From assembly GCA_001821395.1 (NCBI GenBank), contig MHLM01000001.1, forward strand, positions 128,001 to 192,000: 64,000 bases of DNA, given 5' to 3'. The position numbers were made by a program, and so were the translations under genes. Below are positions 29,779 through 62,531 of this stretch, one piece after another (within the stretch, counting starts at the first letter, position 1; every line of letters starts with the position of its first letter). Source of the stretch: Candidatus Lloydbacteria bacterium RIFCSPHIGHO2_02_FULL_50_18 (lineage in GTDB: Bacteria > Patescibacteriota > Minisyncoccia > Phycocordibacterales > UBA6899). Below the pieces are notes generated by a model. The model had not been told where the DNA came from and searched no databases. It saw only the letters and a list, made by a program, of their open reading frames with translations.

Positions 29779-29782
29779 ATCG

Positions 29783-30070
29783 CTAGAAAGGATTCTGATA
29801 AGTGTCGGTATACGGATTGACCGTTTTTTCGAACGGATTCGTATCAGGCATCTTTTCGACTGGATTGGATGCACCAGTTTTTTGATAAATATCTCCACCA
29901 AAAGATTCGGCGGGTACCGCCTCTGCCGGTGTGGCATTTGTATCACTTCCTGATAATGTGTTGTCGGTCCCCTTTTGAGAAGTACCGAAATAAAACCAAA
30001 ACATAAACCCTAAAATGACGGCGAACACGAGCGCGGCAAGCGCAAGTAGTACATTTTTTTTCATGATCAA
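29783..30070 (-). CDS. small secreted/membrane-anchored hypothetical protein
   Basis: N-terminal hydrophobic helix MKKNVLLALAALVFAVILGFMFWFYF, with a low-complexity Thr/Pro/Asn-rich remainder. Its stop lies 4 nt before the start of the repeat-protein gene. Confidence 0.4.
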   Translation of the reverse strand: MIMKKNVLLALAALVFAVILGFMFWFYFGTSQKGTDNTLSGSDTNATPAEAVPAESFGGDIYQKTGASNPVEKMPDTNPFEKTVNPYTDTYQNPF

Positions 30071-41458: not shown

Positions 41459-44400
41459 TCATTCATTTCCCATCAATTCGTTTATTTTAGCCGAAGTGGT
41501 TTTACCAACATATCCGGTCCCCCTAACAAGACCCCAGGGCGCTAAAACATCTTCGGTATATTTTTCTTGGAATTTTATAACTGCTTTATAAGTCAAGAGG
41601 CCGAAATAATCAGTTTCCTTACCCGGAGAGCCAACACCCGAATCAGCCAATCGAGTATCGGGGTCGGAATTGAGGAAAATTTGCAAGCGTTTTATGTCTG
41701 CATTTGTTTGTCGGTATTGTCGGTATTGAGTAAATGGGTTAGTAAATGGCAAAATATTTATTCGCAAATTTTCCGTTACAGTAGTACCCGATCTTAGAAC
41801 GATTATGCTTGAAGCAGTATCTGATGATCTGCCGTAGGCAGTGTAAAATTTAACATAAACGGTATATTGTCCATCCGGACAGATTAGATTTTTAAGTGTA
41901 CCGCCAAATTTTGAGCATAAGTCCCATAGCTTGAAGGCGACATAATCTTCTCGGCTGGCATCAGTGAAATCTCCAGTCATTGAAATCGCCAATTGCTTGA
42001 TGTCCATTCCCGCATTAAAACCAAGTATGACATTTCTATTTGACGTTGTGCTTGATCCGGAATTTACAAAAACCTTAAATCCACCTGTCGGCGTTATCGG
42101 CAAATTACTCCAACCTGCTGGCATACCACCTCCCCCACTTGAAGTTACAGCAGGAGTTACTAAGACGGCGTCCCAAATCAAAGTAAAATTATGAGAGTTG
42201 GAATTTCCGACGTTATCTGAGGCAGTAAAACTGATTACATAAGTTCCGTTAGTATCGACTGAGATAGTTGTGCTCGACGCGGTACCGTCTCCAAACGTTA
42301 CCGCACCAGGTCCTGAAACTTTTGCCCACTGATAAGTTGAAGCGTTCATATCGCTCCCGGAATCTGAAGCTGCAGCGACTTGAGTAAATGTAGCTCCTTT
42401 ATTTTGATCATCTCCAGCACTAATGGTGGGATTTTGTTTATCAATTTTTATGATATTTGACGATTCTGTGTTCTCAATATTCCCTAAATTATCTACTGAG
42501 TAGTACCTTATATATTGCTGACAACTAGAACCTGAGTCACACGACAAACTAACACTTGTTCCTTCAGTGGTTGGCACGCAGCTATTATTAGTGTCAACGC
42601 AATAATATGTATGCGCTATTCCGCTTCCGCTATTATCAGACGGGTTCAAATTAATAGTAAGATCTGAACTATGCCAATTATCATCAGCATTATCGGTTGT
42701 AGTTGGAGACGTATTTCCCACTACAATCGATTCATTAAATGAAACGCTCCAATCGTAAAGGGGCAGTCCGGTACTGCCTGAAGATGGCGATACGCTCGTA
42801 TCTGTATCTCGAATATTACCACCTACGGCAGTAGCATCGCCGGCTTGTGCGCACCAAGATGCAACAACATAGCAACTCCAGGCGTATCTCAAATGTTGAT
42901 CTGTGCCAGTCGGCGTATCACTTAGAGTAATTTTTACTTGACTGTTATTATTTATAAGTTCTACTGAATCTATTGAAACACTATTGCCACCAGCCTGTGT
43001 AAATTCAAACCCATAATCAGGACGCTCCGCAACGTTGGCAGTATCAATAGCTAATGTTCCATAAGGGATATTATAATTGGCGATTATTACGTTACTCGAT
43101 CTCAAAATCGATGATGGCATGAGGGGATTCCAAGTCTGTCCCTCAAACAATACTTTATCCATAACTTTTGCAAACATCTCTCCCATTTTTTTTCTTGGGT
43201 ATTCACGTCCATATGGAGCTTGTCCGACCGATAATGATATTGATACTTTGGCTGGACCAAAATAATTTTTCCGGGATTATCTATATGCGCGTTTAATTGT
43301 GCTTCAGCTATTTCCCCCGTTGGCGCGGAATTCATTTGATTTATAAATAATGGGATAGTGTCGTTACGGCTAGTCAGAGTATTAAGATCGGTTTCATAAT
43401 CCAACTGCCATTCTTCAAGATAACTTTTATAATTTGCTCCGGCACCACCCACATAATCACTTTCTCCGTGAATTGAAGTAACTGCGATGGGTCGATACAG
43501 CTCGCCTAGCGTACTCTCAACGTAAGTTTTAGTTACACTTGCCTGTGTCATACCCTTGTTATACCAAGATGTCCCCTTTTTTAAACCACTGTAGTTAGTT
43601 CCACCATGTGCATGGAGGCCAACGACAATTGGACTGAGAAGATCTTCATACGCATGAAGGCTATTGGCCATTCCTGATGAGATTGTTTCCACATTACCGC
43701 CCTCTCCTTGCCCAGACTCAATTAATGGTATGAGCGGAGCAGCTGTTCCTTCAACTCCGGGGGTAAGCATAAGATTATTATAAGGCTGCGTAACGCTTAT
43801 AGGCGGTGAAGCATAATAAACTACGGCCAGACTTTGCCCCGTTGACAATATCTGATAGTAGGTTGTTTGCTCATTTACCGCGAAGGAAACAGTCCCGGAA
43901 TTATTTGTAAGAGCAGGAGTTGCTGACACGCTTATTATATGAGGAGACCCACTCGTACTTGTAGGTGTATAGGTGAATGTTTTTGCATCTGACGAACCGG
44001 ACCACGACAACGAAGTTGGCGCAAACGTTCCGGCACCAGTTGATGACGATGTAATCGTGCCGGTATATTCGCCATCAGGCGTCACAATAAAATTACCGGA
44101 TGCTGTAGCCATCGTGCCAGACGACGGGCCGGCAAAAGTAAATGATGTAGCGGGTGGCGCAAGGGTGACGACTGAAAATTCAGAACTGTCTGCGGTTGCA
44201 GGGACGCCATCGGTAACCCTGAGCTTGTAATAATAAATCGTAGCGGGAGATAGTCCGGTATCTGATAATGTGAGCGATGTTTGTCCGCTTAAAATATTCC
44301 CAACACCCGGCGTAAAACCGCTGCTTATGCTACGGTACCACTGATAAATATAGGGTGCTATTCCTCCTGTTGCTTCCGAAGATGAAAGATCGATACTTGA

Positions 44401-45189
44401 ATCTGTTTTCTCCATTAAACTAATTGAGCCGGCGCTAAAAGTAGAAAACGGATATTCAAGCCCTGTGCCCGAATTGTATAAACTCGTGATCTCATCTGGA
44501 GTTAGTATTTTTTTCCAAAAACCAACAGAATCAATGCGCCCGTCCAAATACATTGTAGCACCAGAAGCCTGAAATCTCCCGATTGTAAATGCTGCGCTAG
44601 TATTTGCCGGCTCGGAACCGGCGACGCTTGTATTGGTATACGTATTATTAACAGTTATGGTATTAGTATGAGTGGTAGCATTGTGGCTACATGTGAGAAA
44701 ATACCATTGGCCAATCTGGACTCCCCCCGTTGGAGTCACATATGCATCTACCGATGGAAAAGTAGAACAGCGAAACGTGTCGGAACTAACACCGTAATAC
44801 AAAGCATATTCTCCGGTGCTGCCATATTTTCCAACAAACGTCATATTTGTTGATTTGGTATCAAGATAGACCCATGCAGAAATAGTAAAATCTATACCGC
44901 CTATACTCAAACTGGGATTATCAACGATGCTTAAATATTCTGAGTTAGCCATAGTTAACTGCGCAGAATTTCCAAGTTTGCCAACTCCTTGAGTCACCGT
45001 ATTGTTGTCGGTCAGATTATTTGAACTAACACTATCTGCTCGCGTACCACTTACCTCATCTAATTTCCAATAAGAAATAAGTGATGTGGATAAATCCGTT
45101 GCAAAAACATGAGAGAAAAATTGTGTGTACAACGACACCGAAATTAAAAGCAGGGCAAATATTTTAAAATTTTTTCGAAAGGTTTTCAT
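41459..45189 (-). CDS. large secreted surface protein (about 1250 aa if read through): signal peptide, LamG-like lectin domain, Ig/FN3-like region, SASA/sialate-O-acetylesterase-like (SGNH) domain, beta-rich repeats, C-terminal peptidoglycan-binding domain. Interrupted by a frameshift at an A8 tract at 43186-43193, giving ORFs 43102-45189 and 41459-43186.
   Basis: N-terminus MKTFRKNFKIFALLLISVSL is a signal peptide. LamG segments FTISAWVYLD and GRIDSVGFWKKILTPDEITSLYNSG. Esterase motifs GQSLAV, HGESDY and DKLHMD. Adding one A to the coding-strand A8 run joins ...DKLHMDVNTQEKK to MGEMFAKVMDKV..., restoring the SASA C-terminal consensus. C-terminal PG_binding-like segment DIKRLQIFLNSDPDTRLADSGVGSPGKETDYFGLLTYKAVIKFQ. 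Confidence 0.55.
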
Positions 45190-45619: not shown

Positions 45620-46606
45620 ATGACTATTTCTGAAAGCACCTTAGACAAGGTCGGCGCAATGGGCGCTGCATTCTCTCTCATTGACCTCATTCGCGGGTTC
45701 AGCCATGGAGGCGTTCACGTCGGCGGAGGCACGGGCGGAGTAGGTTTTCTTACTTCTCTTCTCACTGTGCTCGTCAGAGTATGGGAAGAAAAAGGCGGGA
45801 GCATGAAAGACGAAAGCGAAATGCTCGAGTCAATGTTTGCAAACCCGCAAGCAAAGAATGAAAAACTCACACCGCAGGAACGTACCAAGATCGCGGCCGT
45901 CATCAAGGCGATGACTCCGGCAGAGCAGAAAGTGTTCCGCATCGCAATTTTTGTGATGGACCCCGATGTGACGACGATCGAAGTACCGGAGAAAAAAGAC
46001 AAGGACGGCAAAGTCATCGCTGTAGCCGGAAAACGAACCGAAAAAACGGGAATTGATCCTCGGGTCAATGTCCTGCACGGTATCGCCGAGCACGTCCATG
46101 ACAACCTCGATAACGTCACCGAAGTGGCCGAATTACTTCGCGGTACGGGGGCGCTGGGTGGAAACAACGAGGCACTTAAGTTTCTCGTCAAGGTACAAGT
46201 AGAGCTCAAAAAGCTTCTTTGCACGTTCTTCGGGGTCGAATCCGTCGATCTTATCACCTTCGACATGGTCAAAGAAAAGGCAACCGTGCTCATCGGAAAT
46301 ATCGGTGTGCCGAATGCCAATTTGCCGGGACCTCCGGTCGGTCCGCTCATGCGAGTGGGTCGCCTCATCACGCCGGGGAGTTATCGCAATGCTCCTGCAT
46401 CGAAAAGCGTGAAGTCCAAGAAAGAGGTAAGGTCGACGAGCCTGCTGAAGATGTTTGCAGTGGTAGCATGTATCACCGGCATCCTCGCTTACGGCTTGTA
46501 CTTCGGAGCTTCAAAGTACCGAGCGTACCAAAGAGATACTGAGATTGACAACATCATCAACGCGTATCAACCGACCAAAACGTCGGCTGAGCAGCCGATG
46601 AAATAG
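45620..46606 (+). CDS. hypothetical protein (328 aa) with Gly-rich N-terminal hydrophobic segment and C-terminal TM anchor
   Basis: No recognisable domain. Its stop lies 18 nt before the next gene, consistent with an operon. Confidence 0.5.
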   Translation: MTISESTLDKVGAMGAAFSLIDLIRGFSHGGVHVGGGTGGVGFLTSLLTVLVRVWEEKGGSMKDESEMLESMFANPQAKNEKLTPQERTKIAAVIKAMTPAEQKVFRIAIFVMDPDVTTIEVPEKKDKDGKVIAVAGKRTEKTGIDPRVNVLHGIAEHVHDNLDNVTEVAELLRGTGALGGNNEALKFLVKVQVELKKLLCTFFGVESVDLITFDMVKEKATVLIGNIGVPNANLPGPPVGPLMRVGRLITPGSYRNAPASKSVKSKKEVRSTSLLKMFAVVACITGILAYGLYFGASKYRAYQRDTEIDNIINAYQPTKTSAEQPMK

Positions 46607-46624
46607 GTCTCAAGGAGAAATCTC

Positions 46625-48247
46625 ATGAGTTTATGGAAAAAAGCAGGCTACGGCCTTTTGGGAATTTCGGCCATTCTCGGTCGAAGGACCCTCTCGTCCG
46701 CATACGACCGCCAGATCGAGGGCATTACCGACGCGCATATCAAATATGTCGGCGGCGCAATGCTCTTCGGAGTTTGCGGTCTCGTGCTTAACTTCATCTT
46801 TTTGATGAATGGGATGCACGGCATGCAAACAGCGCTCTTCGGAGTTATCTGTCTTGCGTCACTGTATTACATGATCGCGCCAAAAATGAGCATTCCGCTC
46901 ATCATCGCGGCCGCAGCGGTTCATGCCGGAGAGGCGAAAGATCAAGCGAAGCTCAAACTGCTCGGCGACGGAGTGAAAGACATTGTCAATCTGGCAAGTC
47001 TGGCACTCTTTTGGATCGGTGTGTACATCGTCGGAACGATCATTGCCCCATGGGACTTGAGTTGGGAATTCTTTCTTTTCCTTCACATGTTCATCATCAT
47101 GGCACTACTGCTCTTTGTGAGCGGCAAGGCATCGGTCAGCACGAAAGTGTACGATAATTGCTTCAAGTTCACCATTGCTGTGATCGTTGTCAGCGTACTC
47201 ACGATCGCAATCGGACGTGAGCACGTAGGACCATTATGGGCGCAATTCTCCGCAAGCAAAACTTCTCGTATCGAGGCCAAGTTGAACGCAAGTTCGATTA
47301 AGACCGCAGACGAAGCGTCAGCCGAGTGGATTGAGAAGAATGTTCACATCGATAAGCGGACCGGTGAGCAATTCGTCATCGTTACCGACAAGGTCACCGG
47401 CAAACAAAAACCGGTCGCCGCACAGCCCTACATTGAGAGGGAGAAGCAACGCAGGAACGAAACCATCCGCTCGGTCACGGAAAAAGGCGGAAAGACCAAT
47501 GCGACAAACACGAGACAGGATAATAAGGGAGGTTACTTCTCTTATGAATACTGGAACGCAAAAGCGCATGAATGGTCGGAATCCTGGGGGGTACCACTCT
47601 TCGTCGGCATCATTGCAGTATTGGCAATGGTCGTGGCACACTTCATTCCCGTCATCTGGGGAGGAAAGAAACTCTTTGGAAAGTCAGGTACTGAAACGGC
47701 AAAGGTTGTTAGTACGCCGAAGGAGTCCGGAAACGGACTTGTTGCCACATTACTCGTTGCGGGTGCTCTCGTGTATATTGGCTTTCAGTATACGCAAGGT
47801 GAACGAGGAGCAAAAGCCAATATGGCACCGCAAACAAGCGTTGCGACATATGCCACACTAAAGAAAGGAGATGCCGGTCTGTGGATGGCCTACTGGAGTG
47901 ACATGAACGGGCACTCCATTTACAGACTTCCTCAAGATAGATGGCATGGGCGAACTGTTTCGCTTTTGCCAGGCAGCTCTGTTTCGAATGTGTCCGACAT
48001 CACGCTTGTTTTTGATCCTAATGATCCAAGTACCAATATCTCATTTAACGGAGATTGCGTTGCCGGTAGCTACGATATTCAAAAAGAGTGCGTCGGATAC
48101 TGGAGAACAGAAGTGGGGTCCGGTACTTTCAGGCTTGAATGGTGGGGAAGCCAGGAAACATTCCACATTGCACTGTTTCCGGGACAACTGCCGGCAAAAG
48201 GACAGGCACAAGCCATCAAGGAGATACGCTTCGTAAAAAAACAATGA
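46625..48247 (+). CDS. hypothetical polytopic membrane protein (540 aa; about 6 N-terminal TM, soluble insert, 2 more TM, C-terminal beta-rich domain)
   Basis: Hydrophobicity pattern only. Followed by a bidirectional terminator at 48278-48312. Confidence 0.5.
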   Translation: MSLWKKAGYGLLGISAILGRRTLSSAYDRQIEGITDAHIKYVGGAMLFGVCGLVLNFIFLMNGMHGMQTALFGVICLASLYYMIAPKMSIPLIIAAAAVHAGEAKDQAKLKLLGDGVKDIVNLASLALFWIGVYIVGTIIAPWDLSWEFFLFLHMFIIMALLLFVSGKASVSTKVYDNCFKFTIAVIVVSVLTIAIGREHVGPLWAQFSASKTSRIEAKLNASSIKTADEASAEWIEKNVHIDKRTGEQFVIVTDKVTGKQKPVAAQPYIEREKQRRNETIRSVTEKGGKTNATNTRQDNKGGYFSYEYWNAKAHEWSESWGVPLFVGIIAVLAMVVAHFIPVIWGGKKLFGKSGTETAKVVSTPKESGNGLVATLLVAGALVYIGFQYTQGERGAKANMAPQTSVATYATLKKGDAGLWMAYWSDMNGHSIYRLPQDRWHGRTVSLLPGSSVSNVSDITLVFDPNDPSTNISFNGDCVAGSYDIQKECVGYWRTEVGSGTFRLEWWGSQETFHIALFPGQLPAKGQAQAIKEIRFVKKQ

Positions 48248-48277
48248 ACGTTCTTTTGCTCACAAGAGCAAAGACCA

Positions 48278-48312
48278 AGGCATGATTGCCTTGGTCTTTT
48301 TTTTAAAAAACA
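48278..48312. terminator. bidirectional intrinsic terminator between convergent genes
   Basis: aaagaccaaggcaatcatgccttggtctttttttt. The stem is perfect and flanked by A-run and T-run. Confidence 0.6.
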
Positions 48313-48331: not shown

Positions 48332-48688
48332 CTAAATAGGAACAGTTGTTTGAATAGTAGGCGCGGTACCCAGTCCGCCGAGCGGTGCAAGTCCCAATTC
48401 TGTTTGGATGAATCCGATGATCGACCAGAGCGCTACAATCACAAAAATACCCACCATGCCCCATACGAGAAACATCCTCCCCTCCTGCACCGCCTTCTCA
48501 TCATCGGCATGCCAAATGAATTTTACGACACCCCAAAAAAATACCGCAACCGCACAACCCAACAGTACGGGCATGATGGTCTGCATGAGATTAATGAGAT
48601 CATCCATGATGGTGATCACCGACGTCTGAGCAAGTGCAAATGTTGGTAAGAAAAAAAACGTACCGAGAATAAAAGATCGTTTAGACAT
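48332..48688 (-). CDS. VirB2/TrbC-like (T4SS-pilin-like) small membrane protein, paralog 1 of 8
   Basis: Signal peptide ending AQT, then two TM helices joined by a charged loop (AVAVFFWGVVKFIWHADDEKAVQEGRMFLVWGMVGIFVIVALW) and a short Gly/Thr-rich C-tail. Confidence 0.5.
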   Translation of the reverse strand: MSKRSFILGTFFFLPTFALAQTSVITIMDDLINLMQTIMPVLLGCAVAVFFWGVVKFIWHADDEKAVQEGRMFLVWGMVGIFVIVALWSIIGFIQTELGLAPLGGLGTAPTIQTTVPI

Positions 48689-49001
48689 AATTCATCAGCG
48701 TCATATCGCCGCCTATTGAGCTAATAAGGAATCGCATGATACCAAACACGGCAACCATGATGAACATGCCAATGATACCCCATATCATACCGAGACGCCC
48801 CTTATCGCGCATCTCCGCATTATCCGGATTCCAGATATACGCGACCACTCCGTAGATAAAATAGACGGTCGCGAGTGCAAAGAGCAAAGCGATGATAGGA
48901 TTCAAAATATACGTCGAGATGTTGCCGACGAAAGTGAGCACCGATGCGGGAATCGGGGGCGCAGCTGCTTCTGCTACGCTTGGAAAAAAAATGTTTAACA
49001 T
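48681..49001 (-). CDS. VirB2/TrbC-like small membrane protein, paralog 2 (start MLNIFFPSV at 49001)
   Basis: Same architecture: LFALATVYFIYGVVAYIWNPDNAEMRDKGRLGMIWGIIGMFIMVAVFG. Overlaps paralog 1 by 8 nt. Confidence 0.5.
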   Translation of the reverse strand: MLNIFFPSVAEAAAPPIPASVLTFVGNISTYILNPIIALLFALATVYFIYGVVAYIWNPDNAEMRDKGRLGMIWGIIGMFIMVAVFGIMRFLISSIGGDMTLMNYV

Positions 49002-49104
49002 GAATAAATTATAGCATCTCAATAAAAATTGACTATCCGAATGAGCAAACAAAAACCCCCGAGAACATTCTCGGGGGGTTTTTGTAATCCTATTTTTATC
49101 AGGA

Positions 49105-49461
49105 CTAGACTCCAGGAACAGCAAATGCTGGTGGTGTTGACGTGGTTATTGTCCCAGTCAATCCAAGCTGAGTCTGAGCCCAACCAAGAATACCCCAGAG
49201 AGCGACCATGACAAAGATCGCAACCATACCCCAGATCATAAGCGTCTTACCCTGCTCCTTTGCGGCTTCATCGCTTGCATTAGCGATATATTTGACCAAG
49301 CCCCAAAAGAACGCAACGACCGCAAGACCCATGAGTAATGGGATCAAAAGCGAGATAATACCCTGAACGCTGTTTACGAGATCGGCGATACCGGTGAGCA
49401 CGGTTGCTGCAGAAGCAACTGCGGGACCCACAAGCATCATTCCGATGATAAATTTCTTCAT
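49105..49461 (-). CDS. VirB2/TrbC-like small membrane protein, paralog 3 (start MKKFIIGMML)
   Basis: Signal peptide AVASAAT, then LAVVAFFWGLVKYIANASDEAAKEQGKTLMIWGMVAIFVMVALWG. Confidence 0.5.
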   Translation of the reverse strand: MKKFIIGMMLVGPAVASAATVLTGIADLVNSVQGIISLLIPLLMGLAVVAFFWGLVKYIANASDEAAKEQGKTLMIWGMVAIFVMVALWGILGWAQTQLGLTGTITTSTPPAFAVPGV

Positions 49462-49635
49462 AGATTTGATAATAATTAATAAATACACCGCCAAAACTAT
49501 AACTTAATGCTATCGCACAAACCGATGTCAAGCAATAGAAAAAAAAGATACCTGTGGATTACTGTTTCCGTTACCCGGAATCACAAAAATCGACCTCTTC
49601 ACATGCCTGATGATCATATTTTTGTACGATAAGAG

Positions 49636-49998
49636 CTAATGGATGCCGCCAGTCGAATCCACATAATCCGGTGCGCCTCCCGGCATAATCCCAAATGTAT
49701 CAACAAGAAGAATTCGCACTATTCCCCATACGGAGAAGAGCACGACGAACGCGATAATCCCCCAAATGATGAATTGCTTTCCTTTTTCACGTTCAACGGG
49801 ATCGTTCGCATTACCGATAAATTTTACGACGCCCCAGAAAAAGAACATGATGGCAGCGATCCAGAAAAATTGTCCGGCCTTCACCAAAATATTGTAGACA
49901 AGCACCTCGAGGTCAAAGACGTCCGTGACTTGCGCGAAAACAAGGGATGGAGTGCCAAGAAGCGTCGCAATACCGAACTGTTTGTTTATTGTTCTCAT
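49636..49998 (-). CDS. VirB2/TrbC-like small membrane protein, paralog 4
   Basis: Signal peptide VFAQVT, then FWIAAIMFFFWGVVKFIGNANDPVEREKGKQFIIWGIIAFVVLFSVWG. Confidence 0.5.
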   Translation of the reverse strand: MRTINKQFGIATLLGTPSLVFAQVTDVFDLEVLVYNILVKAGQFFWIAAIMFFFWGVVKFIGNANDPVEREKGKQFIIWGIIAFVVLFSVWGIVRILLVDTFGIMPGGAPDYVDSTGGIH

Positions 49999-50013
49999 GA
50001 AAATAAAAAATAA

Positions 50014-50358
50014 TTATGAGGGCGTACTCAAAAAAGGAATACCGAACGAACCTCCAAAGAGTGTTGAATTCAAGATACCGATGAGTCCCCACATCCCAAG
50101 CACAACCGCGATACCGATGATGGCCCACAGCAGATAGGGCTTGATCTCTTCGCGCCTTTTCTCATTATCTGAATTCATCATATAGAGCGCGATACCATAT
50201 ACGAGTCCGGCGATAAGCGCGGCAAAGAAAATGGAGATAATGTTCTTTAAGACTCCCAAGAGCAACTCGACGAAACTCTTGAAGTCCGTCGGCGTAGTAG
50301 CGGCAAAAGTAATAAGGGGGGAACAGAAGACTAGCGTCGCAAAGATGAATTTTTTCAT
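50014..50358 (-). CDS. VirB2/TrbC-like small membrane protein, paralog 5 (start MKKFIFATL)
   Basis: Signal peptide ITFAATT, then FFAALIAGLVYGIALYMMNSDNEKRREEIKPYLLWAIIGIAVVLGMWG. Confidence 0.5.
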   Translation of the reverse strand: MKKFIFATLVFCSPLITFAATTPTDFKSFVELLLGVLKNIISIFFAALIAGLVYGIALYMMNSDNEKRREEIKPYLLWAIIGIAVVLGMWGLIGILNSTLFGGSFGIPFLSTPS

Positions 50359-50365
50359 ATACATA

Positions 50366-50704
50366 TTAAAATAATATCGCCGTACCATATACCATGTCTG
50401 CGATGACTTTTGCACCAAGGATAATGAGCCCGCCAACGAGTGTCCACGTGAGCCAGATCTTCGCCTTCGTCACCTGCGCTTCATCCCCCCCCGCGGTGAC
50501 GAACTGAAAACCAGCATAAATAATACAGCACGCGAGCGCGGGTATGCCGACCAGCTGCATGATCTCGATCAGCCAATAGATAAAATCCTGAAGCGTAAGA
50601 ATTGAGGGAGCCGGATTTGATAGCAGTGTCCATGATGCAGCAAGTGAAATTCTTGGTTGCGAGAGGGTGAGTGTGGCGAAAGATACTAAGGCTGTTTTTT
50701 TCAT
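50366..50704 (-). CDS. VirB2/TrbC-like small membrane protein, paralog 6
   Basis: Signal peptide ISLAASW, then GIPALACCIIYAGFQFVTAGGDEAQVTKAKIWLTWTLVGGLIILGAKV. Confidence 0.5.
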   Translation of the reverse strand: MKKTALVSFATLTLSQPRISLAASWTLLSNPAPSILTLQDFIYWLIEIMQLVGIPALACCIIYAGFQFVTAGGDEAQVTKAKIWLTWTLVGGLIILGAKVIADMVYGTAILF

Positions 50705-50723
50705 AAAGGTATTGGGATTCAGA

Positions 50724-51083
50724 TCACAATGAGCTAATAGTCGCCTGTATCGCTGCGGCGATCACTTTCGCACCGAGCAGCACGAGTGCCCCCAACAGTG
50801 TCCACTTGAAGGTGGTACGAGCCTTCGCAATCTGCGCCTCATTGTCCCCCGCGGTCACAAAGAGAAATCCGCCATAAATGATGAACATCACAATAATGGG
50901 CACTCCGATAAGAAAAACGAGGTCGACGATAGCGAGCAGGAGATCGGGAATAGAGGTAATCCCACCGTAAGTGATCGGGTTTACATAGCTTGACGAAGCA
51001 GCAGACGCCGTATGCGTACCCATTAAAAGTCCGAGCGTTGTCAGGTTTAATGGTTTTGTTATGTAGTGTTGCATAAGTATCAT
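50724..51083 (-). CDS. VirB2/TrbC-like small membrane protein, paralog 7
   Basis: Signal peptide HTASAASS, then GVPIIVMFIIYGGFLFVTAGDNEAQIAKARTTFKWTLLGALVLLGAKV. Closest relative of paralog 6. Confidence 0.5.
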   Translation of the reverse strand: MILMQHYITKPLNLTTLGLLMGTHTASAASSSYVNPITYGGITSIPDLLLAIVDLVFLIGVPIIVMFIIYGGFLFVTAGDNEAQIAKARTTFKWTLLGALVLLGAKVIAAAIQATISSL

Positions 51084-51087
51084 GAAT

Positions 51088-51561
51088 TTATGGCCCCAAG
51101 AAATTAAATGACGATCCGGTACCAAGGAAGAATTCGAGGATGAAATTAACAGTCACCCACGCCGCAAGTGCGATAATGAGTCCCCAGAACACATTCAAGA
51201 AAACGTCGTGCGCCTGTTTGACTTGGCCTTCATTGCCACGATTGGTCACGTAGAGAAAACCGGCATAGGCGAACATGACCGCACCCAATGGTGCTGCGAT
51301 CTTGAAAATGAGGAAATTGATCACATTCTGCGCAGTCTCGATCACGTCGTTAAAATAACATTCCTCATGATTACCCGGGGTGGTAGCATTTGATGCCCAG
51401 ACCAAGGGGCTCGGATCTTTGACCGCACCGTCTCCATTAATGTCAAATCCGCAAGGAATGATCGTTGACGGTGAAGCTGCGAATACAGAGAATGGGGTCA
51501 CGAGTATCAAAACACCGAGGAATATCGCAGAAACAAATCGATGAGTGACACTGTTGTGCAT
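51088..51561 (-). CDS. VirB2/TrbC-like small membrane protein, paralog 8, with extra Cys-containing N-terminal module
   Basis: Signal peptide SVFAASP, extra segment CGFDINGDGAVKD..NHEECYF, then AAPLGAVMFAYAGFLYVTNRGNEGQVKQAHDVFLNVFWGLIIALAAW. Confidence 0.5.
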   Translation of the reverse strand: MHNSVTHRFVSAIFLGVLILVTPFSVFAASPSTIIPCGFDINGDGAVKDPSPLVWASNATTPGNHEECYFNDVIETAQNVINFLIFKIAAPLGAVMFAYAGFLYVTNRGNEGQVKQAHDVFLNVFWGLIIALAAWVTVNFILEFFLGTGSSFNFLGP

Positions 51562-51576
51562 AGCAATAAGTGAAGT

Positions 51577-52896
51577 TTAGTAGCGAGACAAAGCAACGTC
51601 AAGTTCCGTGTTCAATTTTGCAACAGCCGTAGCGGTGTCATTCCTCCCTGACGAGACTGATTCGACCATCGCTTGGAATGCTTTGTCGGAAATTTCCGGC
51701 TTTGGATCAAGCCAGGTACGTGCACGAATGGCCGCTTCGAAAAATACCGCCATCGCCGCATCGGTCGGAGGAACCGCGAGCAGGTCTCTTCGAACGGGGG
51801 GCAGATTGTACGCCGCAGCAAAGTCTTTTGCGGGATTCGCATCAAAGAGCAGTTTCTGCATAGCAACAAAGGCGGTGCTTTTATTTTTGGAGGTCTTCAG
51901 CACAGCGAGACCATGCACCTTTGCAAATGTTACCTCAGCCGTCGTTCCTCGCGGTTCCGGAACCTGTGCGACCGCAAAATTCAGGTGTGGATTTTTTGCC
52001 TTGATCTCGCTATATGCACTCGCGTAATCGAAATATACCGCGAGATTTCCGTTGATGAATTCATTGCGCGAATCACTGCGCGCACGACTCCATGTAAAAA
52101 TATTTTTGAGCGGATTCGAAAAATCCATAAAGAAACGGAGGGCAGAAACAACATCCTGATCGGCAACAAATTGACCGGCATCGGATTTTGCAACCATGCT
52201 CTTGGGTGTTTTCCCATTCATCTTGACGATAGGGTTACCCACCTGAAGAAAGAGCATCGCAAGAATGTCTTTCGCATGGGTCACATTGACATACTCCCCA
52301 AATGAAATTGCGCTCTGAACAAGTTCGGAGGTACGTACGTCGCGTTTTGTGAATTTGGGGGTAAGCGTCAAGAACTCATCCCAGAACTTGGGCACTTCGG
52401 TAACCGATGCATTGGTAAAAATATCTCTGTTCCAATACATGACCATCGGGTCGATCGCAAACGGGAGCGCGACCAGCCCCTCATCGCGCATATATATCTC
52501 CGATGCCTGAATGAAGCTCGATGAAAAAAGACCCGGTGAAACAGCAGTGTACGGTACCAGCTCGATCTTATCGAAATGGCGCAGAATGAGATCATCGGGC
52601 AAAAGCAGAACATCGGGGCCCGTTCCGCTTGCGAGCGCCTCAACGATATCACTATCGAAATTTTTCGGATCATGAAATTGATACGAAATACTAAAATTCT
52701 TTTTATATATATCGTTAAATTTCTTGATCGTCTCCGAAAGACCCGCGGTGTCCTGAAAAGTACCCCATATGACGACGTTCCCCTGAGCCCCAGGAACGGT
52801 CGTGTCACCCTTTTTAGGATCCGACGTTGCAAACACAAGAAGACCGACAACGGCCATTATTCCAAAAAAAGTAAGAAGAATCGTCTGAAATTTCAT
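51577..52896 (-). CDS. extracellular solute-binding protein (ABC transporter substrate-binding, cluster 1 / sugar-type)
   Basis: N-terminal TM/signal, then GNVVIWGTFQDT, with two-lobe SBP fold segments throughout. 439 aa. Confidence 0.5.
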   Translation of the reverse strand: MKFQTILLTFFGIMAVVGLLVFATSDPKKGDTTVPGAQGNVVIWGTFQDTAGLSETIKKFNDIYKKNFSISYQFHDPKNFDSDIVEALASGTGPDVLLLPDDLILRHFDKIELVPYTAVSPGLFSSSFIQASEIYMRDEGLVALPFAIDPMVMYWNRDIFTNASVTEVPKFWDEFLTLTPKFTKRDVRTSELVQSAISFGEYVNVTHAKDILAMLFLQVGNPIVKMNGKTPKSMVAKSDAGQFVADQDVVSALRFFMDFSNPLKNIFTWSRARSDSRNEFINGNLAVYFDYASAYSEIKAKNPHLNFAVAQVPEPRGTTAEVTFAKVHGLAVLKTSKNKSTAFVAMQKLLFDANPAKDFAAAYNLPPVRRDLLAVPPTDAAMAVFFEAAIRARTWLDPKPEISDKAFQAMVESVSSGRNDTATAVAKLNTELDVALSRY

Positions 52897-61880: not shown

Positions 61881-62531
61881 ATGAGCACCCAAAATAACCC
61901 CGTTTCAGATCAGCAAGACACGCACAACATCAACACAGAGAGCACAGAGGGGACGAACAGGAATGAGGGGAAAATTTCTACACTCAGGGTCATTTGGGAA
62001 ACCGTGCGCTACGCGATCATCGCCGCACTCATCATCATCCCCATTCGCACCTTCGTCGCACAGCCGTTTGTCGTATCCGGTAACTCTATGTATCCCACCT
62101 TTGAGAATGGGCAATATCTTATCGTCGATGAAACAGCAAAATACATCGGTGAATATCATCGTGGTGATGTGGTCATTCTTCGCTACCCCAATGATCCGTC
62201 AAAATTCTTCATCAAGCGCGTAATCGGACTCCCCGGAGAAACGGTGACCATTCAAAATGGCAAGGTTTCAATCACCAGCGCAACACAGAAAGAACCGTTG
62301 CTGTTGGATGAGCCCTATGTGAAAAATCCAAAGTTCGACAGCTCTTCACGCACGCTCGATAACGAAGAATTCTTCGTGATGGGCGACAATCGCGCACAAA
62401 GCTCCGACTCGCGTGTATGGGGCCCGGTACCAAGACGGCTCATGGACGGCAATGCGTTACTCCGACTGTATCCCCTCACGCTCGTCGCTCTCCATCCGGG
62501 AGGAATTCAAAGCTTTGGGGTCACCTATTGA
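61881..62531 (+). CDS. lepB: signal peptidase I
   Basis: TM anchor, catalytic Ser in VVSGNSMYPTF, Lys box KRVIGLPGE, and GDNRAQSSDSR. Confidence 0.8.
   Translation: MSTQNNPVSDQQDTHNINTESTEGTNRNEGKISTLRVIWETVRYAIIAALIIIPIRTFVAQPFVVSGNSMYPTFENGQYLIVDETAKYIGEYHRGDVVILRYPNDPSKFFIKRVIGLPGETVTIQNGKVSITSATQKEPLLLDEPYVKNPKFDSSSRTLDNEEFFVMGDNRAQSSDSRVWGPVPRRLMDGNALLRLYPLTLVALHPGGIQSFGVTY

What the first reader, a model, noticed from the sequence alone, without database searches (positions are those of the whole stretch)
48332..51561. Tandem array of eight VirB2/TrbC-like (T4SS-pilin-like) paralogs
Eight consecutive minus-strand genes (107-157 aa) share one architecture. Each has a signal peptide ending in an A-x-A-like site, a hydrophobic helix, a short charged loop (often containing WG..VK.I...D.E), a second helix and a small Gly/Thr/Pro tail. 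Adjacent genes overlap or sit 5-20 nt apart.

Pairs 6/7 and 1/3 are closest, suggesting repeated local duplication. Paralog 8 has an extra Cys-containing N-terminal module.

Arrays of this type are a hallmark of episymbiotic CPR genomes and are thought to form surface filaments or contact structures. The copy number and divergence here suggest diversification, for example antigenic variation or host specificity.
Basis: partly seen in the sequence, partly recalled or inferred. Interest (0 to 1): 0.6.

Follow-up and report, generated by a model that had tools for sequence, protein, structure and literature searches.

The report
Eight-gene T4SS-type pilin array, Lloydbacteria
Eight neighbouring genes in an ultra-small (CPR/Patescibacteria) bacterium encode small two-helix "pilin-like" membrane proteins of a family already known to form such arrays in these bacteria, so the finding is real and correctly named but mostly ordinary for this group.

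Summary
Window 48332-51561 (minus strand) carries eight consecutive genes of 106-157 aa. All eight score above the Pfam gathering threshold for PF18895 (T4SS_pilin), and none reaches it for PF04956 (TrbC/VirB2). AlphaFold models give a confident two-helix hairpin behind a signal peptide.

The window matches Candidatus Lloydbacteria (class Paceibacteria). Tandem arrays of 2-11 divergent VirB2-like pilins in Patescibacteria are already published (2020, 2023, 2025), so this is a new member of a known kind.

Comparison with 23 related loci adds four points:
- **Old array.** It is positionally orthologous across Lloydbacteria species, and pilin types keep a conserved order across Paceibacteria. Non-synonymous divergence matches that of neighbouring genes. 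This argues against recent duplication or antigenic variation.
- **Binding-protein partner.** A MalE-like solute-binding protein gene sits immediately upstream in 20 of 20 loci, usually 4 nt overlapping to 17 nt apart.
- **Variable loop.** The first pilin type has two invariant cysteines bounding a hypervariable loop.
- **Fusions.** Some homologues join several pilin modules in one polypeptide.

No VirB4, VirB6 or VirD4 gene lies within about 80 kb. A published table lists VirB4 as present in the likely source assembly. Assembly into a pilus is inferred, not shown.

The parts
51088..51561 (-). P8: first pilin of the array (157 aa). Signal peptide, then a segment bounded by C37 and C68, then the two-helix hairpin.
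   Evidence: PF18895 32.4 bits, PF04956 21.9 bits (below threshold). AF2 helices 70-106 and 111-146. C37 and C68 are invariant in 67 homologues. The loop between them is 3-31 aa long and 19% identical, against 73% for the hairpin core.
50724..51083 (-). P7: TrbC-like pilin type (119 aa) with the motif YGGFLFVTAGDNEAQ.
   Evidence: PF18895 37.1 bits. Orthologs at position 2 of four Lloydbacteria arrays, 70-76% identical. A P7-type gene is the first or second gene (third in L022) in most Paceibacteria arrays recovered.
50366..50704 (-). P6: paralog of P7 (112 aa).
   Evidence: PF18895 30.7 bits, PF04956 22.3 bits (below threshold). 38% identical to P7 over 105 aa. Fastest-evolving member, pN 0.28 against L007.
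50014..50388 (-). P5: pilin of the 'WG..K.I' group. The start is ambiguous: ATG at 50358 gives 114 aa, ATG at 50388 gives 124 aa as in the public gene call.
   Evidence: PF18895 29.5 bits. Best sub-threshold match to NCBIfam NF045849, the Mycoplasma ICE pilin-like protein (33.4 bits against a cutoff of 40). Gene call of 124 aa.
49636..49998 (-). P4: pilin (120 aa), last gene before the 174-nt gap.
   Evidence: PF18895 39.1 bits. The exact protein is found on 19 public contigs.
49105..49461 (-). P3: pilin (118 aa), flanked by the 174-nt gap and a terminator. It is the type present in several copies in other Paceibacteria arrays and is a candidate major subunit (inference).
   Evidence: PF18895 30.6 bits. 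AF2 hairpin with block-mean pLDDT 93-95 over residues 41-90. 81% identical to the L007 ortholog. P3-type genes are repeated in arrays L013-L029.
49056..49077 (-). Intrinsic-terminator-like hairpin after P3.
   Evidence: 9-bp stem with 7 G-C pairs, 4-nt loop, followed by TTTTTGTTTG.
49008..49035 (-). Promoter-like site before P2 (TAGTCA, 16 nt, TG-extended TATAAT). The P2 ATG lies 6 nt after the -10 box (-10 ends at 49008, ATG starts at 49001), so the mRNA may be leaderless (inference).
   Evidence: Best promoter match in the region, 10 of 12. Sequence read directly.
48681..49001 (-). P2: pilin (106 aa) with a very short uncharged leader. It overlaps P1 by 8 nt.
   Evidence: PF18895 27.6 bits. 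A P2-type gene is the last or next-to-last gene in nearly all related arrays. Most constrained member, pN 0.10.
48332..48688 (-). P1: last pilin (118 aa), closest paralog of P3, with a Gly/Thr/Pro tail.
   Evidence: PF18895 33.4 bits. 48-50% identical to P3. A clear P1 ortholog occupies the last array position only in the Lloydbacteria loci L007-L012.
51577..52896 (-). MalE-like solute-binding protein (439 aa, N-terminal hydrophobic anchor or signal). Its stop codon lies 15 nt before P8. Probable first gene of the operon.
   Evidence: SBP_bac_8 E 1e-19, SBP_bac_1 E 5e-16. Distant PDB and NCBIfam matches to sugar-binding proteins and MalE. A homologue sits directly upstream of the first pilin in 20 of 20 related loci, with gaps of -4 to +17 nt in 18 of them, while identity falls to 29-39%.
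48270..48299 (.). Hairpin between the end of P1 and the convergent 540-aa gene. It scores as a terminator on the + strand only.
   Evidence: 13-bp stem followed by a T run.
45620..48247 (+). Two convergent genes of unknown function: 328 aa, and 540 aa with several hydrophobic stretches. Possible accessory genes of the P3-P2-P1 part of the array. The link is weak.
   Evidence: No Pfam or NCBIfam hit. Homologues follow the P3-P2-P1-type genes in L007, L011 and L012, including loci where the first five pilins are absent. The word-indexed search returned only 3 proteins, one of them the query itself.

Best explanation
The eight genes encode small envelope proteins of the T4SS_pilin (PF18895) family, which is remotely related to VirB2/TrbC conjugative pilins.

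**Proposed steps, and the basis of each**
1. Each protein is exported by the Sec pathway and probably cut by signal peptidase I after an Ala-x-Ala-like site. This is inferred from the sequences; a signal peptidase I gene lies at 61881-62531.
2. Each inserts in the membrane as a two-helix hairpin, with both ends outside and the short charged loop inside. The fold is predicted; the topology is inferred.
3. The subunits are then taken up by the Patescibacteria-type (monoderm, MPF-FATA-like) type IV secretion machinery, which is encoded elsewhere in the genome. They build a surface pilus-like or conduit structure used in contact with a host cell. This step is inferred from homology and from the essentiality of the pilin series in Ca. 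Southlakia.

**A fixed set, not alternatives**
The eight proteins are a fixed, ancient set of differentiated subunit types made together, not interchangeable variants.
- A P8-type subunit carries a hypervariable disulfide-bounded loop and is the likely exposed specificity element.
- P7 and P6 are TrbC-like types.
- P5, P4, P3 and P1 are 'WG..K.I'-type copies. P3 stands apart between the 174-nt gap and a strong terminator, and is the best candidate for the major subunit.
- A P2-type gene sits last or next to last in nearly all arrays compared; in this window and the other Lloydbacteria loci P1 follows it.

The first five pilin genes are probably co-transcribed with a MalE-like binding protein.
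For: **Family and fold**
- All eight score above the PF18895 threshold.
- The hairpin is predicted with high confidence.
- A 92-aa protein in the T4SS cluster of Bacillus mycoides plasmid p124 links the two Pfam families. It hits PF04956 at 47.7 bits and PF18895 at 26.1 bits. It aligns to the array profile with hhalign probability 63%, E 7e-5.

**Organism and machinery**
- The identical proteins are deposited from Ca. Lloydbacteria under locus tags A2845_02950 to 02965.
- Table S1 of PMC12102498 lists the likely source assembly, GCA_001818945.1 (the link to it rests on G+C, as stated under evidence against), as having VirB4.

**Published context**
- Arrays of 2-11 VirB2-like pilins occur in 383 Patescibacteria assemblies.
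- The pilin series is essential in Southlakia.

**Fixed set of types**
- Best hits of P8 to P1 fall at collinear positions in four Lloydbacteria arrays, at 40-82% identity against 18-50% between paralogs.
- The order P8-type, P7-type, several P3-types, P2-type recurs in Vogel-, Kaiser- and Nomurabacteria loci.
- pN against L007 is 0.10-0.28 with pS saturated (0.62-0.88), like the flanking genes.
- There are no recent DNA repeats in the array.
- Single polypeptides with 2-19 modules exist. One of them, L015:5074-6087, is an uninterrupted ORF under code 11.

**Specificity loop**
- C37 and C68 are invariant. The loop between them is 3-31 aa long and 19% identical, against 73% in the core.

**Operon**
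- The binding-protein gene is adjacent in 20 of 20 loci.
Against: - No VirB4, VirB6, VirB3 or VirD4 gene is in the window. None is in the 8 kb beyond either end, and none is near the array in any of the 23 related loci. The link to a T4SS therefore rests on family name and literature.
- The PF04956 threshold is not met.
- Fold searches do not discriminate.
  - Foldseek finds nothing significant; a conjugation pilin (8dfu) appears only at rank 9 with E 1.3.
- No pilus of this family has been seen experimentally, according to the papers read here.
- Covalently fused multi-module homologues fit poorly with extraction of single subunits into a classical helical pilus.
- Assignment of the window to assembly 49_22 rests on G+C (about 48%), because the source names were cut off. 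The other 'RIFCSPHIGHO2_01_FULL' Lloydbacteria assembly in Table S1, 54_11, is also listed as VirB4-positive.
Confidence: 0.6

Rival explanations
1. Variant repertoire. The eight paralogs are alternative versions of one pilin. They are kept for antigenic or phase variation, or to match different host strains, and are used one or a few at a time.
For: - Identity within the array is low, 18-50%.
- Multiple VirB2 paralogs in Bartonella and Anaplasma are interpreted this way in the literature.
- At least two separate transcription units would allow differential expression.
Against: - Positional orthologs are kept in the same order in four other species, and type order is conserved across the class.
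- Every copy is constrained about as much as its neighbours.
- There are no near-identical tracts or cassettes for recombination.
- Fused multi-module homologues force co-expression.
Confidence: 0.1
2. Not a pilus. The hairpin proteins stay in the membrane and form a hetero-oligomeric channel or platform. This might work together with the co-transcribed MalE-like binding protein as an uptake or sensing device, with or without the T4SS.
For: - The binding-protein gene is translationally coupled to the first pilin in most of 20 loci, across deep divergence.
- No T4SS gene is nearby in any Paceibacteria locus examined.
- Fused 6- to 38-helix polypeptides look like polytopic membrane proteins.
- Monoderm conjugation systems carry related small proteins without a known pilus, as in the Bacillus p124 cluster. 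The reviews read here state that Gram-positive T4SSs generally lack pili.
Against: - The whole neighbourhood (gyrA, methyltransferase, binding protein, array, rbfA, infB) is syntenic. Adjacency could therefore partly reflect general gene-order conservation.
- No ABC permease or ATPase gene lies beside the binding protein.
- The family's only functional data place it within a T4SS cluster.
Confidence: 0.22
3. Unrelated small two-helix membrane proteins, for example holin-like or immunity proteins, that match PF18895 only through hydrophobic composition.
For: - Pfam scores are modest, 27.6-39.1 bits.
- Hydrophobic hairpins attract weak matches to many unrelated families.
- Fold searches are non-specific.
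Against: - All eight pass a curated threshold, with alignments that cover most or all of the model: 5-71 of 71 positions for P1, 20-71 for P4.
- Conserved non-hydrophobic motifs (GNE.Q..KA; D/N-D-E in the loop) are shared with tens of thousands of homologues.
- There is no phage or toxin context.
Confidence: 0.03

Closest known systems
VirB2-like pilin arrays of Patescibacteria (Quinonero-Coronel et al. 2025, PMC12102498; 441 arrays of 2-11 genes in 383 assemblies)
   Same: - Same Pfam family (PF18895) and same phylum.
- Tandem arrangement.
- Intra-array identity in the published range: here 18-50%, published mean 25% and maximum 54%.
- The likely source assembly, GCA_001818945.1, was in that study's dataset.
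   Different: - That study centred on the virB4 neighbourhood and reports arrays as most abundant in Microgenomatia and Saccharimonadia.
- This array is in Paceibacteria, more than 12 kb (downstream) and more than 48 kb (upstream) from any T4SS ATPase gene, at a conserved gyrA to infB locus.
- It is coupled to a solute-binding-protein gene, which is not mentioned in the main text of that paper.
Essential pilin series in the T4SS cluster of Ca. Southlakia epibionticum ML1 (Wang et al. 2023, PMC10633639) and the array of 4-6 small Sec-secreted proteins in Nanosynbacter lyticus TM7x (McLean et al. 2020, PMC7427843)
   Same: Several sequence-divergent, structurally similar small secreted hairpin proteins encoded in a row in an epibiotic CPR bacterium.
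   Different: - Those arrays lie inside the T4SS gene cluster (SEML1_0006-0019; next to VirB4/VirB6 in TM7x) and have 4-6 members.
- This array has eight members and is unlinked to the machinery.
- Essentiality is shown there and is untested here.
TrbC/VirB2 conjugative pilins (Pfam PF04956; A. tumefaciens VirB2, RP4 TrbC, F TraA)
   Same: Signal peptide followed by two hydrophobic helices and a short polar loop, at about 100 aa. There is weak profile similarity, with P6 and P8 at E about 1e-4.
   Different: - The Pfam threshold is not met.
- No diderm-type partners (VirB5, VirB7, VirB9, VirB10) were found: none of the scanned ORFs in the window gave such a Pfam hit, and these subunits are not among those reported for Patescibacteria T4SSs.
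- Cyclisation or acetylation is unknown.
- Canonical systems usually have one pilin gene.
Multiple VirB2/TrwL paralogs in Bartonella Trw and Anaplasma T4SS loci
   Same: Tandem amplification of divergent VirB2-type genes, as cited in PMC12102498.
   Different: Those are diderm, host-cell-targeting pathogens, and the copies are interpreted as surface variants. Here the copies are anciently fixed types in a conserved order.
Small TrbC/VirB2-family proteins of monoderm conjugation systems (Bacillus mycoides p124, pXO2-like cluster; NCBIfam NF045849, Mycoplasma ICE pilin-like protein)
   Same: - Same hairpin size.
- The p124 protein scores on both PF04956 and PF18895 and aligns to the array profile.
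- P1-P5 and P8 give sub-threshold hits to NF045849.
   Different: Those are single-copy, have no Cys-loop type, and are embedded in a conjugative element that encodes a VirD4-like coupling protein and is typed as carrying a MOBP relaxase. The NCBIfam cutoff (40 bits) is not reached here; the best score is 33.4.

Membership tests
Pfam PF18895 T4SS_pilin | Whole-protein HMM score at or above the gathering threshold (26.6 bits). | tested here: met
   All eight pass: 33.4, 27.6, 30.6, 39.1, 29.5, 30.7, 37.1 and 32.4 bits for P1 to P8.
Pfam PF18895 T4SS_pilin | Leader peptide followed by two hydrophobic helices joined by a short polar loop. | tested here: met
   Hydrophobicity segments. AF2 hairpins for P3 and P8. 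P2's leader is atypically short. SignalP was not run.
Pfam PF04956 TrbC/VirB2 pilin | Whole-protein HMM score at or above the gathering threshold (27.9 bits). | tested here: not met
   The best scores are P6 at 22.3 and P8 at 21.9 bits. P5 scores 15.6 and P2 13.5. The others have no hit.
Pfam PF04956 TrbC/VirB2 pilin | Detectable remote homology to a bona fide family member. | tested here: inconclusive
   hhalign of the 124-sequence array profile against the Bacillus p124 TrbC/VirB2-family protein gives probability 63%, E 7e-5 over 57 columns. That protein itself scores 47.7 bits on PF04956 and 26.1 bits on PF18895.
Functional T4SS pilus subunit (VirB2 in the strict sense) | Encoded with, or dependent on, a VirB4-type ATPase and VirB6-type platform. 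| tested here: not met
   None is in the 64 kb window, in the 8 kb beyond each end, or beside the arrays of the 23 related loci. VirB4 is listed as present elsewhere in the probable source assembly. Dependence is untestable here.
Functional T4SS pilus subunit (VirB2 in the strict sense) | Fold matches solved conjugative pilins specifically. | tested here: inconclusive
Functional T4SS pilus subunit (VirB2 in the strict sense) | Polymerises into an extracellular filament. | not testable with these tools
   This needs microscopy or biochemistry.
Patescibacteria VirB2-like pilin array (PMC12102498) | Two or more tandem genes matching PF18895 or PF04956 in a Patescibacteria genome, with low identity between the copies. 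| tested here: met
   Eight genes, at 18-50% identity, in Ca. Lloydbacteria, class Paceibacteria.
Type IV pilins (T4P, class III signal peptide) | Short basic leader ending in Gly, followed by F/M-x-x-x-E and a single long N-terminal hydrophobic helix, processed by a PilD-type peptidase. | tested here: not met
   None of the eight sequences has this motif. They have ordinary Ala-x-Ala-type leaders and two hydrophobic helices (sequences). T4P machinery genes (PilB- and PilC-like) do lie 6-9 kb upstream of the window but are a separate system.
NCBIfam NF045849 (Mbov_0395 family pilin-like conjugal transfer protein, Mycoplasma ICE) | Score at or above the curated cutoff (40 bits). | tested here: not met
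   P1-P5 and P8 score 18.5-33.4 bits. P6 and P7 have no hit.

The most novel reading that the evidence does not exclude
The unit conserved across Paceibacteria may not be 'a pilin array' but an operon. In it, a MalE-like binding protein is translationally coupled to an ordered set of distinct hairpin subunit types, which in some lineages are fused into one polytopic polypeptide. These would together build a heteromeric surface conduit that captures host-derived carbohydrate or another ligand. The hypervariable Cys-bounded loop of the first subunit would set host specificity. Such a device might work away from, or even without, the VirB4 machinery.
Probability: 0.15. Interest if true: 0.75.

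Novelty: new member of a known kind. Interest (0 to 1): 0.3.

Why it matters
Patescibacteria make up a large share of uncultured bacterial diversity and appear to live attached to host cells. In the one genetically tractable member, the T4SS and its pilin series are essential. What the structure is and what passes through it are open questions.

This locus does not change that picture. The comparative details could help in designing experiments:
- The set of subunit types is fixed and ordered, which predicts a heteromeric assembly with defined roles.
- One subunit type carries the variable, probably exposed loop.
- A sugar-type binding protein is consistently co-encoded with the array in Paceibacteria.
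- Naturally fused multi-module versions could serve as constructs for structural work.

Tried and rejected
**Searches that gave nothing useful**
- PDB sequence search with the family profile: no meaningful hit.
- Pfam scans of the larger ORFs across the window, looking for VirB4, VirB6, VirD4 or VirB11 (30 of the ORFs of 150 aa or more; a few 150-280-aa ORFs were not scanned): none found. The 760-aa ORF at 27664-29946 is a secreted Cys-repeat protein, not an ATPase.
- Extending 8-10 kb beyond both window ends: type IV pilus genes upstream and ftsA/ftsZ downstream, but no T4SS genes. Two earlier look-ups failed because my ORF starts differed from the called genes.
- The large ATPase ORFs near arrays in L021 and L028: these are ClpB.
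- The 540-aa multi-helix neighbour as a possible VirB6 analogue: no family hit, and only 3 proteins returned including the query. Left as unknown.
- Fetching R388 by accession to obtain a canonical VirB2: record not in the collection. A Bacillus plasmid homologue was used instead.
- First attempt at a related-locus search with all eight paralogs: failed because no stretch was conserved enough. It was repeated with the P1/P3 subgroup.
- Rfam scan: only tRNAs.

**Readings rejected**
- Recent duplication or gene conversion: rejected on the repeat scan and positional orthology.

**Limits**
- dN/dS values are not reliable because synonymous sites are saturated. Only pN and pS are used.

Full report
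**1. What is there**

The minus strand of window 48332-51561 holds eight consecutive ORFs, here called P1 (48332-48688) to P8 (51088-51561), of 106-157 aa. Public gene calls on the same contig (ENA ERZ27254752 k141_760951, 190 kb) give the same eight genes, each already tagged PF18895.

I ran Pfam myself. All eight exceed the gathering threshold of PF18895 T4SS_pilin (27.6-39.1 bits against 26.6). None reaches the threshold of PF04956 TrbC/VirB2; the best scores are P6 at 22.3 and P8 at 21.9 against 27.9. A profile built from 124 family members finds exactly these eight ORFs in the 64 kb window and nothing else.

The shared architecture is real. Each protein has a leader that ends in an Ala-x-Ala-like site, two hydrophobic stretches and a short acidic/basic loop. 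Several also have a Gly/Thr/Pro tail. P2 is the exception: its leader is only 12 uncharged residues.

AlphaFold2 with family alignments predicts a two-helix hairpin.
- For P3 the helices are 12-60 and 65-99, with block-mean pLDDT of 93-95 over residues 41-90.
- For P8 the helices are 70-106 and 111-146, behind a low-confidence segment at 28-69.

**2. Corrections to the description**

Junctions are 4, 19, 7, 15, 174, 103 and -8 nt. The 103-nt gap after P3 contains a strong terminator-like hairpin (49056-49077). It also contains the best promoter-like site of the region (49035-49008, TG-extended TATAAT). The -10 box ends 6 nt before the P2 start codon. The array is therefore at least two, probably three, transcription units:
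- the binding-protein gene with P8 to P4;
- P3 alone;
- P2 with P1.

Two sequence groups are visible.
- P6, P7 and P8 carry a 'Y-A/G-G-F-x-F/Y-V-T-x-G-x-x-E-x-Q' motif and give the weak TrbC hits.
- P1 to P5 carry 'F/Y-W/Y-G-x-V/A-K/L-F/Y-I/M'. Together with P8, they give sub-threshold hits to NCBIfam NF045849, a pilin-like protein of Mycoplasma integrative conjugative elements (18.5-33.4 bits against a cutoff of 40).

**3. Organism and surroundings**

The identical proteins are deposited as hypothetical proteins A2845_02950 to 02965 of a Candidatus Lloydbacteria MAG from the Rifle aquifer. The window's G+C of about 48% fits RIFCSPHIGHO2_01_FULL_49_22 (GCA_001818945.1, class Paceibacteria). 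Because the source names were truncated, this assignment is an inference.

The rest of the window is ordinary chromosome: gyrA, topA, infB, rbfA, serS, hisS, clpB, parB, dprA, relA/spoT, a signal peptidase I gene and eight tRNAs.

No VirB4, VirB6, VirD4 or VirB11 homologue is in the window or in the 8 kb beyond either end. Upstream lie type IV pilus genes (PilB- and PilC-like), which belong to a different system. Table S1 of Quinonero-Coronel et al. lists VirB4 as present in this assembly and in the two other Lloydbacteria assemblies I read in the table. The same paper reports that in Paceibacteria virB4 usually lies near dnaA and dnaN.

**4. Comparison with related loci**

A genome-collection scan with the P1/P3 subgroup returned 23 loci. 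Nearly all are labelled as Paceibacteria-type lineages: Lloyd-, Vogel-, Kaiser- and Nomurabacteria, plus unclassified Patescibacteria. Four records are labelled Saccharibacteria and one Gammaproteobacteria; because they share this synteny, I take those labels to be doubtful bin names. Every locus holds 3-9 tandem family members. Three results follow.

(a) *Positional orthology.* The best hits of window P8 to P1 fall at array positions 1 to 8 in L007, L009 and L010. In L008 they fall at positions 1-6, 8 and 9, because L008 has one extra P3-type copy. Identities are 40-82%, far above the 18-50% between paralogs.

Outside Lloydbacteria, the order of types is kept: P8-type, P7-type, one or more P3-types, then a P2-type. 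The duplications therefore predate the divergence of these lineages.

Against the L007 orthologs, non-synonymous differences are 0.10-0.28 per site, while synonymous sites are saturated (0.62-0.88). The adjacent binding-protein gene (0.14) and methyltransferase gene (0.15) fall in the same range.

The array has no DNA repeats better than 76% over 62 nt. In the ortholog alignments, conserved columns cluster in the two helices and the loop, and are sparser in the leaders and tails (by inspection).

(b) *A conserved partner.* The neighbourhood S1 protein, MBL-fold hydrolase, gyrA, methyltransferase, solute-binding protein, array, variable genes, rbfA, infB recurs across the loci.

The solute-binding-protein homologue lies directly upstream of the first pilin in 20 of 20 loci that cover that side. 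The gap is -4 to +17 nt in 18 of them, even where its identity to the window protein has fallen to 29-39%.

It is a distant MalE-type, sugar-class binding protein. No permease or ATPase gene lies beside it.

(c) *Modularity.* L011 and L012 carry only P3-, P2- and P1-type genes, followed by homologues of the two convergent unknown genes (window 45620-48247). This suggests that part of the array can be separated from the rest.

**5. The family at large**

A profile of the eight window proteins matches 61,882 representative clusters at E <= 0.001, and 10,082 at E <= 1e-10.

The top hits are single polypeptides with 2-19 tandem modules joined by Gly/Ser/Thr/Pro linkers. One such protein, with three modules, is encoded by DNA I hold (L015:5074-6087). 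It is an uninterrupted ORF under the standard bacterial code. The Gly/Thr/Pro tails of P1, P3 and P4 correspond to these linkers.

The P8 type is a tight subfamily: 67 sequences that are 51-90% identical to P8. It has invariant C37 and C68. The loop between them varies from 3 to 31 residues and is 19% identical on average, against 73% for the hairpin core.

**6. How it probably works**

*Shown:*
- family membership;
- the predicted hairpin;
- operon-like packing with the binding-protein gene;
- a conserved ordered set of types;
- purifying constraint.

*Inferred from sequence:*
- Sec export and cleavage by signal peptidase I;
- N-out/C-out membrane topology;
- exposure of the P8 loop and of the C-terminal tails.

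*Inferred from homology and literature:*
- uptake by the Patescibacteria T4SS into a pilus-like or conduit structure that contacts a host cell.

The literature behind the last inference is as follows. The pilin series is essential in Ca. Southlakia and lies inside its T4SS cluster. Reviews treat a pilus as a possibility, not a fact.

The conserved order, the equal constraint on all copies and the natural fusions argue that the paralogs are made together and fill different positions in one assembly. They do not look like interchangeable variants. P3 is a reasonable candidate for the major subunit: it lies between the 174-nt gap and a strong terminator, it is one of the two most conserved members (81% identical to its L007 ortholog, with P2 at 82%), and it is the type repeated elsewhere. 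This is speculation.

**7. Rivals**

- *Variant repertoire (0.10).* This is weakened by the points in sections 4 and 5.
- *Membrane-resident channel or platform, possibly working with the binding protein and not as a pilus (0.22).* This cannot be excluded. No T4SS gene is near the array in any Paceibacteria locus, and long fusions look like polytopic membrane proteins. Related small proteins also exist in monoderm conjugation clusters that are not known to make pili. The example is Bacillus mycoides p124, whose 92-aa protein scores on both Pfam models and aligns to the array profile at hhalign probability 63%.
- *Spurious family match (0.03).* This is unlikely given the conserved polar motifs and the thresholds passed.

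**8. Comparison with what is known, and novelty**

This is a member of the published class of Patescibacteria VirB2-like pilin arrays. It is not a member of PF04956 by the curated threshold. It is not a type IV (T4P) pilin either, because it lacks a class III leader.

Fold searches cannot decide anything, because a helical hairpin is too generic.

The following were not found in the main text of the papers read here:
- positional orthology and conserved type order;
- coupling to the binding-protein gene;
- the hypervariable Cys-bounded loop;
- fused multi-module homologues.

These refine a known kind rather than define a new one.

**9. Verdict**

Novelty: new member of a known kind. Interest: 0.3.

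Noticed in passing
window 51577-52896 (-); homologues in L007-L010 and L013-L029: A MalE-like solute-binding protein gene, with no adjacent permease or ATPase gene, lies directly upstream of the first pilin gene in 20 of 20 related loci. The gap is -4 to +17 nt in 18 of them, although the protein has diverged to 29-39% identity. This looks like a conserved operon partner of the array.
   Followed up: partly
proteins P0129, P0130, P0132, P0150, P0154, P0164, P0259; L015:5074-6087: Single polypeptides carry 2-19 tandem pilin modules joined by Gly/Ser/Thr/Pro linkers, usually with one N-terminal signal peptide. The three-module example in L015 is an uninterrupted ORF under code 11. For the longer ones, the DNA was not checked for genetic code or frame.
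   Followed up: partly
window 51088-51561 (P8), residues 37-68; alignment A4: The first pilin type has two invariant cysteines that bound a loop hypervariable in length (3-31 aa) and sequence (19% identity). The hairpin core is 73% identical across 67 homologues. The pattern resembles a receptor-binding loop.
   Followed up: yes
L027:8637-9719 and L027:9767-10813: Pilin-family proteins of about 350 aa carry long C-terminal extensions with repeated Cys-rich units (YSCTDHSQCASGFCDPADGTCS). This fits a C-terminus displayed outside the cell. The second ORF contains a run of N/X from assembly masking.
   Followed up: no
window 45620-46606 (+) and 46625-48247 (+): Two genes convergent on the array (328 aa; 540 aa with several hydrophobic stretches) match no Pfam or NCBIfam model. 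The word-indexed search returned only 3 proteins for the 540-aa one, one of them the query itself. In Lloydbacteria loci L007, L011 and L012, homologues of both travel with the P3-P2-P1-type genes.
   Followed up: partly
window 27664-29946 (-): A 760-aa ORF with no Pfam hit has an internal hydrophobic segment that could be a leader for a shorter gene. It carries repeated 'C..K..CE.YC....H..EC..FAE' units followed by repeats rich in Met, Lys and Glu. It appears to be a secreted Cys-repeat protein of unknown function.
   Followed up: no
window 41459-45189 (-): Two large, probably surface-exposed proteins lie between the array region and a cluster of four tRNA genes: 695 aa with a Laminin_G_3 (ConA-like lectin) domain and a signal peptide, and 575 aa with a PKD domain. 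No match to either was found in any of the related loci, so they may be a lineage-specific insertion in the otherwise conserved gyrA to infB block.
   Followed up: no
L030:678-3470 (record positions about 102-105 kb, 6-9 kb upstream of window start): Type IV pilus machinery genes (T2SSE/PilB-like and T2SSF/PilC-like) lie next to a response regulator and a dCache/HAMP sensor. This is a separate surface-filament system in the same genome.
   Followed up: no
window 49001-49035 (-): The P2 start codon lies 6 nt downstream of an extended -10 box (TGCTATAAT), which suggests a leaderless P2-P1 transcript.
   Followed up: no
L032:11908-12186 (Bacillus mycoides plasmid p124, NZ_CP036020.1): A monoderm pXO2-like conjugation cluster encodes a 92-aa protein that scores on both PF04956 (47.7 bits) and PF18895 (26.1 bits). 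The published statement that Gram-positive T4SS classes lack VirB2 homologues may need qualifying.
   Followed up: partly
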